Shown: piece by piece, positions 24,401 through 27,400 of the stretch
How positions within the stretch are numbered: the stretch's first letter is position 1
Layout of the letters: each line of letters starts with the position of its first letter
Assembly: GCF_000026545.1 (NCBI RefSeq)
Contig: NC_011601.1
Strand: one strand, 5' to 3'
DNA length: 64,000 bases
Source: Escherichia coli O127:H6 str. E2348/69
GTDB taxonomy: Bacteria > Pseudomonadota > Gammaproteobacteria > Enterobacterales > Enterobacteriaceae
Program-made: the position numbers

Positions 24401-27400
24401 TGATTTTTGGTAGGGTCATGATGTTCTCCATTGTTATGAGGCCTGTAAGTCAAAGGGACTTTTCCATCCCAACAAACGTGAAATATCCCTGGCGCAGGCA
24501 ATGGCCTTGCCCGCCAGATAATCACGGTATTCTTCATTGATTTGTAAGCGGGTACCGACCACCGAAATCGCAGCGGTAAGCTCGTTATTGGCGTTAAACA
24601 CCGGCGCAGCGACACAACGGACATCGGCGTAATCTTCGCCGTTGTCATAGCTCCAGCCCCGGCGGCGAATACGCGCCAGTTCTTCGTAGAGCCGTTGTGG
24701 ATGAGTAATCGTTGTGGGTGTCGCCCGTTCCCAGACCAGCCCTTCGATAATACTTTGCTGTACAGCTGCAGGTTGCCAGGCAAGCAGGCATTTACCTATT
24801 CCGGAGCGATAAAGCGAAAGGCTTTTTCCTTCATGGGAACGCACGCTGATAGTGGCTGATGACTCCACTTTCAAAATGTAATAAGCGCTGCCGTTATCAA
24901 TAATCCCCAGGTGACATAACAGCCCGGTGGTATCCATCAGTTGCGTCAAACGCGGTCGAGCCAGTTCCCGGAGATCCATCTTGCTTAACGCATGACCGGA
25001 AAGCTCCACCAGCCTGGTCCACAAACAAAAATTTTCCTGGTGATCAAGGCTAAGAAAACGCTGACGCCTGAGTTCATTAAGCAGCAAATAGGCTGTGCTT
25101 TTAGGGATCCCCAATGTGTCAATGATCGTCGCAGCACTACAGGGGCCAATGCGGGCAATCAAATTGAGAATATCAATAGCCCGTGTCAGGGCGGGAACTT
25201 TGCTTGATTCCAACATACTGGACTCCAGTCTTAGATACTGGAATCAGTCTCGTTGCTCAGGGGGAGTAAAATTGTGAAGCGCATCAAATCCCGCTCCTCG
25301 TCCAGCGGACTGGAGAAATCACGCACAAATTTGTGAATCAGCGCACGGATTTTTTCTTATTGAGTACAACAGGTTGGACAAATTTTGCCGGAGGGGGAAT
25401 GTGCCGGTGCAGTAAACCGGCACAGAGTGGCGGAATCAGACGGATAAGGTCATGGACTCAACAACCTCAATCCAGCCATGCTCGCTGGCGATGTCCTGGC
25501 CGTTTAACCAACGGCGTAGCATATTAAGCGCCATCATTGCGCAGACTTCCTGGCGAATAGCCAGACTGTAGCGCGTAGTGCTGAAACGCACACGCAAAGC
25601 GAAAGTGCCGTCTGGCGTGGCTAGTGCAAAGTTGAGATGCTCATCTTCCAGACCAGAAACAGCCAGTGCCAACCCAGCAAAATGGTTCGCCCGCCGTTCT
25701 GTAATCCAGTGCGCAGTTTGCGCCAGGGTTTCCTGCTGTGAAGGAACCACTTCACACGCCAGCAATGGAGCATCTGCGCGAGAAAGTTGCAAAGCCAATA
25801 AACCACCGGTGAATTGCTCGCTCAGCGTCAGGCTGAACTGGCGGCTCTGCAATTCGCGACTGATCTGCGCGGGCAGTCCTTCGGTGCCTTCGAAAATCAC
25901 GCTCTGTCCGGCAACACGTTTAACGTCCAGCCACAGTTTTTCCATCGCCTGTTCCTCGCTTGCCGGTCCGGTGAGTTTCAGTTCGATAATCGGCATTGAG
26001 GAGCGATAGCCCATTGTTACGCCCGGCGGCAGTTGTAGAGTGTCCAGGCTTTGTGCCAGATCGCTTTCCGAACGACCAAAGGTAGTCAAACGCAGGCAAA
26101 CCGGCGGCAGTGGTAAAGAAAAACGCTCGCGCAGGCGCGGCAGGATTTCGTGCTCGACCATCACCTTAAATTCTGACGGTACGCCGGGGGTAAAGAACAT
26201 CAGGCAACGATTAAGCTGTATGGCAAAACCACAGGCAGTGCCTACCGGGTTATTGATAAATTCAGCACTGGCAGGCAGCTCCGCTTGTTTACGGTTGCTC
26301 GGTGCCATTACTCGTCCCCGTTCGTGGAAATAGCGTTCCATCTCTTTGAGCCAGGCTTCATGCAGCACCAGGCCTTCACCTTTTGCTGTCGCAGCGGCGA
26401 GTGCGCTTAAATCATCACTGGTCGGTCCCAGCCCGCCGTTAACGATCAGCACATCGGCGTGCTGACTACGTTCGCGAAGAATGGTGACTAAGTCATCAAG
26501 GTTATCCCCCACCGTATTGCGGCGAGATAATGGCAGCCCCTGATGAAAGAAAAAATCGGCCAGCCAGGCAGCGTTAGTGTCAACGATTTGCCCGTGTAAC
26601 ACTTCATCCCCGGTGGATAACATTTCCACTTTTAACATGGTTATCTCCTGCTTTTGTTATCGAATCACTATAACGCAAAGGGAGACAGGGCGTAGTAAGA
26701 AACTGAATGGCGCGACAGAACGCCGCGCCGGAAGGCGTCAGAAGCTGGCATTTACCCCAACATACGGACCATCAGCAATGGCGTTATCACGATTGCCATT
26801 TTTACCTGCCAGGTTCAGGTAACGGTAGCCAGCCTCAATGCTGACTGGACGCATAATGGTGTAACGCGCGCCAGCATTCGCTTCTTCATAACTTTTAATT
26901 CCGCTGGAGAGCGAATCCGGAGAGTAGTAATACTCACCAAACAAGCGGAAGCTGTCACCAATTTGCCACTGCAAACCACCGCCAACTGCCGCTGCATAAC
27001 CTTCATCACCATCGTTCGGGTTAGTGTAAACGCCTTTACCACCAACGGTCGCCATTAATGGCCCGAGAGGCAGATTCAAACCGAGTCCCACACCCGCGGC
27101 ATCACCGTCGTCGTCGTTATGTGTCCAGTTACCGCTTAACGCCAGGCCCGTCGATTCAGTCCCAAAACCGACACCAATATTGGTGTATTCTTTACCCGCC
27201 TGGCCGCTGATGCTCATTGCATTGACCGATGCAGAAAACAACAGCATTCCGGCCAGACCTGCTAGCGCAATTTTTTTCATTATCCCCTTTCCCACAAGCA
27301 ATTAATCAAAATTCCCAAAGCTGCGGGATTGTACAGCCTGGCGCAGAGGATTCAATGAGCGAAAAAAGGGATCTAGTCACTTATTGTAACTAAATACTTC

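What the first reader, a model, noticed from the sequence alone, without database searches (positions are those of the whole stretch)
25217..25340. Palindromes in the rhmR upstream region as candidate IclR-type operators
Directly upstream of rhmR lie ctggactccag with a repeated tactgga (25217-25245) and a perfect 12-bp palindrome cacaaatttgtg (25324-25335) embedded in tgtgaatcagcgcac. These could be RhmR autoregulatory operators and/or a CRP-like site for the rhmRDTA operon.
Basis: inference. Interest (0 to 1): 0.3.

Follow-up and report, generated by a model that had tools for sequence, protein, structure and literature searches.

The report
Conserved control region of rhm operon

Summary
The window is E. 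coli. On the minus strand lie yfaY, a 219-bp spacer, then rhmR-rhmD-rhmT-rhmA.

**Element 1 (25217-25245):** real and conserved. It holds the TCCAGTA repeats and the ribosome-binding site, inside two adjacent TCCA-N6-TGGA-type boxes. One box sits at the predicted transcription start. The other spans the start codon. This motif occurs only twice in the 64-kb window, both times here. In 39 orthologous loci all 68 exact copies lie within 200 bp of the rhmR start.

**Element 2 (12-bp palindrome):** at chance frequency (16 seen, 15.6 expected) and not conserved outside Escherichia. However, the overlapping "tgtgaatcagcgcac" is a conserved CRP-like site.

**Other sites:** a second CRP site at 25273-25288 is already listed from CRP genomic SELEX.

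**Best model:** a weak promoter activated by CRP and controlled by RhmR through the TCCA boxes. RhmR binding and the start site are inferred, not shown.

**Verdict:** ordinary kind of element, new operator prediction, modest interest.

The parts
24434..25216 (-). rhmR (yfaX), an IclR-family regulator and the first gene of rhmR-rhmD-rhmT-rhmA
   Evidence: ORF listed. IclR-family matches and neighbouring gene identities. RefSeq annotation.
25205..25224 (-). Box E: gaGTCCAgtatgtTGGAATCA (TCCA-N6-TGGA core at 25209-25222). It spans the region from the ribosome-binding site through codons 1-4 of rhmR. Predicted centre +23.5.
   Evidence: Present in all 43 loci scored (1 mismatch in L044) and in L049-L051. 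Codons 2-4 are invariant at synonymous sites. The N6 spacing is kept where the start codon has moved: Cedecea and Pantoea and TTG starts in Vibrio-like loci.
25223..25226 (-). Shine-Dalgarno GGAG of rhmR, 6 nt before the ATG.
   Evidence: Read directly from the sequence. GGAG is near-invariant while the preceding T of TGGA varies among T, C and A.
25229..25248 (-). Box D: ACTGATTCCAgtatctAAGA. The left half, TGATTCCA (25239-25246), is near-invariant. The right half is degenerate in E. coli. Centre is 20 bp upstream of box E and overlaps the predicted transcription start.
   Evidence: TGATTCCA has column identity 0.98. It reads TCCA-N6-aGGA at -20 in the Klebsiella, Raoultella, Kluyvera, Trabulsiella, Kosakonia and Phytobacter loci and in L043 and L049.
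25246..25251 (-). Predicted -10 hexamer GAGACT, which puts the predicted start at about 25239. There is no recognisable -35.
   Evidence: The same column reads CACACT or AACACT in other enterics, GATACT in L039, and AATAAT in Tolumonas and Vibrio. The metagenomic loci L043 and L044 show full sigma-70 promoters (TTGCAA-17-TATACT and TTTACA-17-TATATC) within 1 nt of this position. L049 also carries a TTGACA upstream. The consensus scan finds no strong promoter. The start site is inferred, not measured.
25273..25288 (-). CRP site 2: TTTGA-tgcgct-TCACA (+ strand TGTGAAGCGCATCAAA). Centre 25280.5, which is -41.5 from the predicted start.
   Evidence: One mismatch to the CRP core, and one of only 3 such sites in the window. 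Found at exactly -65 from box E in 40 of 43 loci. Listed as the CRP box of the yfaXWVU/yfaY spacer in CRP genomic SELEX (PMC3105977 supplement; main text).
25301..25314 (-). Box C: TCCAgtccgcTGGA. It lies exactly 92 bp upstream of box E, at predicted -68.5, between the two CRP sites.
   Evidence: Exact motif. Found at -92 in 35 of 43 loci, including Tolumonas and Vibrio, and in L050 and L051. Lost in Trabulsiella, Cedecea, Prodigiosinella, Pantoea, L043 and L044.
25332..25347 (-). Centre 25339.5, predicted -100.5.
   Evidence: Two mismatches in E. coli. A site with at most 2 mismatches sits at -124 to -126 in 36 of 43 loci, and is perfect (TGTGA-N6-TCACA) in Tolumonas and Prodigiosinella. About 0.07 sites of this quality are expected per 219 bp, and two are present.
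25324..25335 (.). One arm is the TCACA half of CRP-like site 1. The other arm is not conserved.
   Evidence: Chance frequency: 16 found against 15.6 expected. Perfect only in the window and L039, with 2-5 of 6 pairs broken outside Escherichia.
25363..25380 (-). Box A: tGTCCAACctGTTGTACt (TCCA-N6-TGTA). Its binding protein is unknown: a variant RhmR box or a site for another protein.
   Evidence: Unique in the window. Invariant position in all Enterobacterales loci, and a perfect palindrome AGTACAACctGTTGTACT in Cedecea, Prodigiosinella and Pantoea. It travels with the operon where the upstream gene is not yfaY. Absent from Tolumonas, Vibrio and the metagenomic loci.
25400..25424 (-). GC-rich hairpin just after the yfaY stop codon. 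It probably insulates the rhm promoter from yfaY read-through.
   Evidence: 9-bp stem, -16.7 kcal/mol, z-score -2.75. No U-tract, so the terminator scan does not call it. Other genera carry a different hairpin sequence at the same place.

Best explanation
The yfaY-rhmR spacer is the cis-regulatory module of the autoregulated rhmRDTA operon, which catabolises L-rhamnonate.

**Promoter.** A weak sigma-70 promoter has the -10 hexamer GAGACT at 25251-25246, no -35, and a predicted start near 25239.

**Activation.**
- cAMP-CRP activates from a class II site centred at -41.5 (25273-88).
- A second CRP-like site near -100.5 (25332-47) probably helps.

**Control by RhmR.**
- RhmR is an IclR-family protein. 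It most likely binds TCCA-N6-TGGA boxes whose half-sites are one helical turn apart.
- Two adjacent boxes lie 20 bp apart. Box D covers the start site. Box E covers the ribosome-binding site and the first codons.
- RhmR bound there would block RNA polymerase, giving negative autoregulation and repression of the catabolic genes.
- An auxiliary box C at -68.5 sits at a fixed 92 bp from box E. Box A at -132.5 may be a further site.
- An effector would release RhmR. That effector is presumably L-rhamnonate or its dehydration product.

**Shown here:** the sites, their statistical excess, and their conservation and rigid spacing. In vitro CRP binding to this spacer comes from the literature.

**Inferred:** the start site, that RhmR is the protein binding the TCCA boxes, that it represses, and the effector.
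For: **Locus identity.** Gene identities are. The K-12 spacer differs from the window at only 2 non-motif positions, so K-12 literature applies.

**Motif specificity.**
- TCCA-N6-TGGA occurs twice in 64 kb, both times here.
- In 264 kb of 39 orthologous loci all 68 exact copies lie within -200 to +10 of the rhmR start.

**Rigid geometry, measured from box E.** The counts are from the 43 loci scored.

| Site | Distance from box E | Loci with the site |
|---|---|---|
| Box D | -20 | several clades |
| CRP site 2 | -65 | 40 of 43 |
| Box C | -92 | 35 of 43 |
| CRP-like site 1 | -124 or -125 | 36 of 43 |

This geometry is the same in Enterobacterales, Tolumonas, Vibrio and Vibrio-like contigs.

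**Selection rather than lack of divergence.**
- Box columns are 0.95-0.99 identical. Adjacent spacers are 0.45-0.57.
- The gene-wide top-codon fraction is 0.65, yet codons 2-4 are invariant.
- The box E spacing survives start-codon relocation.

**Promoter position.**
- A -10-like hexamer occupies the same column in all loci.
- The CRP-less metagenomic loci L043 and L044 have full sigma-70 promoters there. Only boxes D and E lie downstream of them, which argues for repression.

**CRP.** Genomic SELEX lists yfaX as a CRP target with the box TGTGAAGCGCATCAAA.

**No RNA alternative.** Rfam gives no match. The leader hairpin shows no covariation.
Against: - No experimental start site could be retrieved, so the -41.5 assignment rests on the predicted -10.
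- Nothing here or in the searchable literature shows RhmR binding DNA.
- The right half of box D is degenerate in E. coli, with 2 of 4 matches.
- Box C has been lost in several lineages.
- The right half of box A is invariantly TGTAC and never TGGA, which hints at a different specificity or a different protein.
- The paralogue YjhI has the same regulator-first operon layout and is reported to be an activator (PMC13279387). Repression is therefore not assured.
- The two CRP sites are 59 bp apart, which is not an integral number of helical turns.
Confidence: 0.6

Rival explanations
1. RhmR is mainly an activator, as reported for the paralogue YjhI. With effector bound, it activates from box C at -68.5, and perhaps box A, together with the two CRP dimers. 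Boxes D and E only limit its own synthesis.
For: - YjhI has the same regulator-first operon layout and behaves as an "activated activator" (PMC13279387).
- The yjhI upstream region has a CRP-like site followed 34 bp later by a perfect 16-bp palindrome. This resembles the 32-bp distance from CRP-like site 1 to box C.
- The E. coli core promoter is very weak.
- Box C keeps a fixed phase with CRP site 2 and box E.
Against: - RhmR is only 32% identical to YjhI.
- Box C is dispensable in Trabulsiella, Cedecea, Prodigiosinella and Pantoea.
- The CRP-less loci L043, L044 and L049 have strong promoter elements and only the downstream boxes D and E. That is a repressor layout.
- The best-conserved boxes lie at and downstream of the predicted start.
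Confidence: 0.2
2. The TCCA boxes are bound by a different protein. The true RhmR operator is the long palindrome box A (GTCCAACctGTTGTAC, 25363-80).
For: - Box A is the longest and most symmetric conserved element, a perfect 8-2-8 palindrome in three genera.
- It is unique in the window.
- It moves with the operon.
- Its size is typical of IclR-type operators.
Against: - Box A is missing from Tolumonas, Vibrio and five metagenomic rhmRDTA loci that keep RhmR (56-75% identical) and keep boxes D and E, and often box C.
- It lies about 130 bp upstream of the predicted start, too far for simple repression.
- It shares the 4-6-4 geometry and the GTCCA half-site with boxes C and E. It may be the same family rather than a rival.
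Confidence: 0.12
3. Conservation around the start codon reflects an mRNA-level element. This could be a hairpin pairing UGAUUCCAGU with ACUGGAGUC that hides the Shine-Dalgarno sequence, or a small-RNA target. It would not be a DNA operator.
For: - The predicted hairpin sequesters GGAG. The minimum free energy is -20.7 kcal/mol over 71 nt.
- Synonymous sites of codons 2-4 are frozen.
- TGATTCCA and TGGAATCA form a perfect 8-bp inverted repeat that is 96.7% pairable across 30 sequences.
Against: - The z-score is only -1.65, and 14 of 200 shuffles fold as well.
- There is no covariation: 87.2% of cells are paired against 87.1% in shuffles. Variable columns mostly break pairs.
- The 5' arm lies at or upstream of the predicted start.
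- The same DNA motif recurs 92 bp upstream in DNA that would not be transcribed.
- Rfam gives no match.
Confidence: 0.08
4. The 12-bp palindrome cacaaatttgtg is itself an operator, for RhmR or for another dimeric regulator.
For: It is a perfect palindrome in E. coli and lies within the regulatory region.
Against: - Perfect 12-bp palindromes occur at the chance rate, 16 against 15.6 expected per 64 kb.
- Only the TCACA-side arm is conserved.
- The palindrome is perfect only in two Escherichia sequences and is broken at 2-5 of 6 pairs in other genera.
Confidence: 0.04

Closest known systems
IclR-family operators in E. coli, such as the IclR box at aceBAK/iclR and the AllR box (consensus recalled from my own knowledge, not tested here)
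   Same: Short palindromes built on TGGA/TCCA-type half-sites about one helical turn apart. Several boxes per promoter. The regulator controls its own gene. Binding is usually as a dimer of dimers.
   Different: Here the half-sites face outward (TCCA-N6-TGGA) rather than inward (TGGAAAT-N-ATTTCCA). One box lies over the start codon. No binding data exist for RhmR.
The XynR (YagI) and YjhI D-xylonate regulons of E. coli
   Same: Paralogous IclR-type regulators of sugar-acid operons encoding a transporter, a dehydratase and an aldolase. yjhI is also the first gene of its operon and is also a CRP SELEX target. The effector in those systems is the 2-keto-3-deoxy acid, which suggests the analogous compound here.
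   Different: They are only 30-32% identical to RhmR. Their consensus sites are stated to be uncharacterised. The yjhI upstream palindrome GTTCAGCATGCTGAAC is unrelated in sequence. YjhI activates, whereas XynR represses.
Class II and tandem-site CRP-dependent promoters of secondary carbon-source operons
   Same: A CRP core with 9 of 10 matches replaces the -35, at the right distance (21 nt) from a weak -10. A second upstream CRP-like site is present. CRP binds this spacer in vitro.
   Different: The start site has not been mapped. The 59-bp spacing of the two sites is out of helical phase. An extra regulator box sits between them.
The dgoRKADT operon with DgoR and CRP (D-galactonate). The operator sequence was read. 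Its function is from my own knowledge.
   Same: A sugar-acid operon whose first gene is its own specific regulator, with operators near the promoter and a CRP-like box TGTGATCTAAATTGTA next to the inverted repeats.
   Different: DgoR belongs to the GntR family. Its operator, TGTAgTACA, resembles box A only superficially (GTACAAC, TTGTAC). Box A has no complete DgoR repeat.

Membership tests
IclR-type (RhmR) operator | A palindromic or pseudo-palindromic site with half-sites about 10 bp apart, usually in several copies | tested here: met
   TCCA-N6-TGGA at 25209-22 and 25301-14. Variant boxes lie at 25229-42 and 25365-78.
IclR-type (RhmR) operator | Co-occurs with the regulator gene across genomes and is specific to its promoter | tested here: met
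   Box E is in all 43 loci scored and in L049-L051. All 68 exact motif copies in 264 kb lie within 200 bp of the rhmR start.
IclR-type (RhmR) operator | Overlaps or adjoins the core promoter of the regulated operon | tested here: inconclusive
   Boxes D and E lie at +3.5 and +23.5 from a start site that is only predicted, from a conserved -10 column and the CRP geometry. No mapped start was available.
IclR-type (RhmR) operator | Bound by the IclR-family protein, with binding modulated by a small-molecule effector | not testable with these tools
   No RhmR-DNA binding data appear in the searchable literature. RefSeq still names the K-12 gene product a "putative" regulator.
CRP binding site / CRP-dependent promoter | Match to TGTGA-N6-TCACA | tested here: met
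   25273-88 matches 9 of 10. 25332-47 matches 8 of 10. About 0.07 such sites are expected in 219 bp.
CRP binding site / CRP-dependent promoter | CRP binds the DNA | tested here: met
   From the literature only. CRP genomic SELEX recovered the yfaX/yfaY spacer and names TGTGAAGCGCATCAAA. Binding to the second site at 25332-47 is not resolved.
CRP binding site / CRP-dependent promoter | Site centred at an activating position (-41.5, -61.5 and so on), with CRP-dependent transcription | tested here: inconclusive
   The -41.5 position follows from the 21-nt gap to the conserved -10 column. There are no start-site or expression data.
Sigma-54 promoter (considered because of an RpoN SELEX peak) | TGGCAC-N5-TTGC with GG-N10-GC spacing | tested here: not met
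   The best match in the spacer is TTGGACAAATTTTGCC (25374-89, + strand). It has 3 mismatches, at chance level, and points away from rhmR. It is not conserved outside Escherichia.
Structured RNA leader / known RNA family | A match to a curated family, or covariation supporting a fold | tested here: not met
   No Rfam match at E<=1. The hairpin has a z-score of -1.65 and no covariation.

The most novel reading that the evidence does not exclude
The exact 20, 65 and 92-bp spacings are unchanged in gamma-proteobacteria of three orders. They would reflect one fixed nucleoprotein complex. In it, an RhmR tetramer on boxes D and E bridges to box C, and in enterics to box A. This loops the DNA around the CRP-RNA polymerase complex. 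The operator inside the first codons would dictate the N-terminal codons, and even the start-codon choice, of the regulator it binds.
Probability: 0.2. Interest if true: 0.45.

Novelty: new member of a known kind. Interest (0 to 1): 0.3.

Why it matters
RhmR (YfaX) is still annotated as a putative regulator, and I found no published operator for it. This analysis provides three things:
- a concrete, testable operator motif (TCCA-N6-TGGA);
- a predicted promoter and start site;
- a CRP plus specific-regulator architecture for the L-rhamnonate operon.

That is enough to design gel-shift probes, reporter mutants or a sugar-acid biosensor. It also gives a clean example of an operator constraining synonymous sites and the start codon of the regulator's own gene. 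It does not reveal a new kind of mechanism.

Tried and rejected
**Experimental start sites.** The Cappable-seq table is truncated at about 0.57 Mb of the genome. The dRNA-seq paper is not held. The start therefore remains predicted.

**Sigma-54 promoter.** I looked for one to explain the RpoN SELEX peak. There is no site with proper GG-N10-GC spacing.

**Known RNA family or riboswitch.** None found.

**Leader hairpin or long-range pairing.** No covariation.

**Antisense 20-codon ORF.** It starts at GTG 25274, ends at TGA 25336, and has GGGGGAG upstream. Its length varies from 5 to 81 codons among genera and the ribosome-binding site is not kept. It is chance, and the GTG is simply the CRP core.

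**Box A as a DgoR site.** The real dgo operator is TGTAgTACA. Box A has no complete copy.

**Box A or TCCA boxes elsewhere in the window.** None found.

**Transferring specificity from XynR or YjhI.** They are only 30-32% identical, and their own consensus sites are unpublished.

**Cra.** From memory, ACTGATTCCAGTAT loosely resembles the asymmetric Cra consensus. It mismatches the TGAA core, and this would not explain the paired boxes. I did not pursue it.

**FNR at 25273-88.** Only the TTGAT half fits, and only in some genera.
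Full report
**Locus.** The window is Escherichia coli. 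The 351 bases around the finding match 5,417 of 5,426 complete genomes, and one of them at 100%. On the minus strand lie yfaY (25436-26638), a 219-bp spacer (25217-25435), and then rhmR/yfaX (24434-25216). rhmD, rhmT and rhmA follow, almost abutting each other. "Upstream of rhmR" therefore means higher coordinates. The K-12 spacer differs from the window at two positions, neither in a motif. K-12 literature therefore applies.

**Observation.**
- Taken singly, the palindromes are unremarkable. Perfect 12-bp palindromes number 16 in the window against 15.6 expected. The 5-1-5 type numbers 81 against 62.
- The clustering is not chance. Five CTGGA/TCCAG pentamers fall in 25210-25312, the densest 100 bp of the whole 64 kb.
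- They pair into TCCA-N6-TGGA at 25209-22 and 25301-14. These are the only two occurrences in the window.

**Phylogenetic footprint.**
- I fetched 38 loci with rhmR relatives from Enterobacterales genomes.
- I added seven more distant rhmRDTA loci: Tolumonas at 75% RhmR identity, Vibrio mangrovi at 65%, and five metagenomic contigs at 56-65%.
- The region from -45 to +22 around the start codon aligns without a single gap in all of them.

In rhmR orientation, the conserved elements and their centres relative to box E are as follows.

| Element | Sequence | Window coordinates | Offset from box E |
|---|---|---|---|
| Box A | tGTCCAACctGTTGTACt | 25380-63 | -156 or -157 |
| CRP-like site 1 | cGTGc-N6-TCACA | 25347-32 | -124 or -125 |
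| Box C | TCCA-N6-TGGA | 25314-01 | -92 |
| CRP site 2 | TTTGA-N6-TCACA | 25288-73 | -65 |
| -10-like hexamer | GAGACT | 25251-46 | - |
| Box D | TGATTCCAgtat... | 25248-29 | -20 |
| Box E | GGAG-TCCAgtATGtTGGAATCA | 25226-05 | 0 |

- Column identity among 21 genus-level representatives is 0.95-0.99 in the box D and E cores. It is 0.45-0.57 in the spacers between blocks.
- The conservation therefore reflects selection and not a lack of divergence.
- In 264 kb of 39 loci, all 68 exact TCCA-N6-TGGA copies lie within 200 bp of the rhmR start.

**Box E is a nucleic-acid element, not a by-product of coding.**
- Codons 2-4 (TTG GAA TCA; two are six-fold degenerate) are invariant or nearly so at synonymous sites in 35 orthologues. 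The gene-wide mean top-codon fraction is 0.65, and only 4.7% of codons are that constant.
- In Cedecea and Pantoea the ATG has moved 3 nt downstream.
- In Vibrio-like loci ATG has become ATT, and the following TTG seems to serve as the start.
- The TCCA-N6-TGGA spacing is nevertheless untouched.

**DNA or RNA?**
- A hairpin that would hide the Shine-Dalgarno sequence can be drawn, but its z-score is only -1.65.
- On 30 sequences it shows no covariation. Paired cells are 87.2% against 87.1% in shuffles, and variable columns mostly break pairs.
- Rfam has no match.
- The same motif recurs 92 bp upstream, in DNA that the predicted transcript does not cover.

I therefore favour protein-binding sites.

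**Promoter.**
- No strong sigma-70 promoter exists in the spacer.
- The column 25251-46 reads GAGACT in E. coli, C/AACACT in other enterics, GATACT in one Escherichia species, and AATAAT in Tolumonas and Vibrio.
- In the CRP-less metagenomic loci L043 and L044 a complete promoter sits within 1 nt of that column (TTGCAA-17-TATACT and TTTACA-17-TATATC). L049 also carries a TTGACA upstream.
- This places the start near 25239. CRP site 2 then falls at -41.5, with exactly 21 nt between TCACA and the hexamer. That is a class II arrangement.
- CRP genomic SELEX independently recovered this spacer and names TGTGAAGCGCATCAAA, which is site 2, as its CRP box.
It keeps its GTG-N8-CAC core at a fixed place in 36 of 43 loci and is a perfect consensus in two.
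- Two sites of this quality in 219 bp compare with 0.07 expected.

**Who binds the TCCA boxes?**
- RhmR is the obvious candidate. The boxes accompany rhmR in every locus, across three orders and into unclassified metagenomic contigs. The 10-bp half-site spacing suits a helix-turn-helix dimer. Two boxes 20 bp apart suit a dimer of dimers.
- Their position at and just downstream of the predicted start argues for repression and negative autoregulation. So do the loci that have a strong promoter and only boxes D and E.
- This is inference. I found no published RhmR-DNA data, and RefSeq still calls the protein putative.
- The paralogue YjhI (32% identical) has the same regulator-first layout and is reported to activate. 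An activating role for box C at -68.5 therefore stays open.
- By analogy with XynR and YjhI, whose effector is the 2-keto-3-deoxy acid, the RhmR effector may be 2-keto-3-deoxy-L-rhamnonate rather than L-rhamnonate.

**The 12-bp palindrome.**
- Its TCACA-side arm is the right half of CRP-like site 1.
- The other arm (aatttgtg) is not conserved. The palindrome is perfect only in the window and one other Escherichia, and loses 2-5 of its 6 pairs elsewhere.
- It is a chance extension, not an operator.

**Unexplained.**
- Box A is as well conserved as anything in the region and is unique in the window. It travels with the operon even where yfaY is not the neighbour. It is restricted to Enterobacterales, and its right half is always TGTAC. 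It may be a variant RhmR box or the site of another protein.
- An RpoN-holoenzyme SELEX peak is reported in this spacer, but there is no credible sigma-54 promoter.

**Verdict.** It picked the right first element but framed it by the wrong symmetry. Its second "palindrome" is chance. It missed the principal CRP site, box C and box A. The kind of element is ordinary: a CRP-dependent catabolic promoter with a specific IclR-type regulator. CRP site 2 was already known from SELEX. The RhmR box, the promoter placement and the rigid architecture are new predictions.

Noticed in passing
window 21509-25371: 1,440 of 5,417 complete E. coli genomes lack a full-length match to this region. In the one example inspected (strain 05_3471), a 3.86-kb deletion removes the 5' part of rhmA, rhmT, rhmD, rhmR and the whole promoter region. 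Window position 21508 is joined to 25372, inside box A. Three other Escherichia species keep the promoter but carry truncated rhmR (L037-L039).
   Followed up: partly
It is perfect (AGTACAACctGTTGTACT) in Cedecea, Prodigiosinella and Pantoea and is absent outside Enterobacterales. Its binding protein is unknown.
   Followed up: partly
window about 25374-25450: Published RpoN-holoenzyme genomic SELEX reports a peak in the yfaY/yfaX spacer (K-12 position 2,360,468, 34% intensity). The only sigma-54-like string is TTGGACAAATTTTGCC on the + strand. It has a poor -24 element and is not conserved.
   Followed up: partly
window 25400-25424: A GC-rich 9-bp hairpin lies directly after the yfaY stop codon (-16.7 kcal/mol, z-score -2.75), with no U-tract. 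Other genera have a different hairpin sequence at the same place.
   Followed up: partly
L028, L034, L042, L050, L051 around the rhmR start: The rhmR start codon differs among orthologues. ATG lies 3 nt downstream in Cedecea and Pantoea. In Vibrio-like loci ATG has become ATT and TTG apparently serves as the start. One gene call (L050) begins 54 nt too far downstream. The DNA box over the start is unchanged in all of them.
   Followed up: partly
L041-L044, L049-L051 (whole loci): The rhmRDTA cassette looks horizontally mobile. RhmD is 87-98% identical across Enterobacterales, Tolumonas, Vibrio and unclassified contigs. The flanking genes differ, and in Tolumonas a phage-type integrase lies next to the cassette.
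   Followed up: no
L045 about 6867-6882 and 6901-6916 (minus strand; K-12 yjhI upstream): Upstream of the paralogous regulator gene yjhI lies a CRP-like box, TGTGTACAAGATCACA. It is followed 34 bp later (centre to centre) by a perfect 16-bp palindrome, GTTCAGCATGCTGAAC. This is a candidate for the YjhI operator, which the literature says is still undefined.
   Followed up: no
window 25351-25356: An A6 tract (GAAAAAATC) between box A and CRP-like site 1 is conserved across most enterobacterial loci. It may be an intrinsic bend or part of the CRP flank.
   Followed up: no
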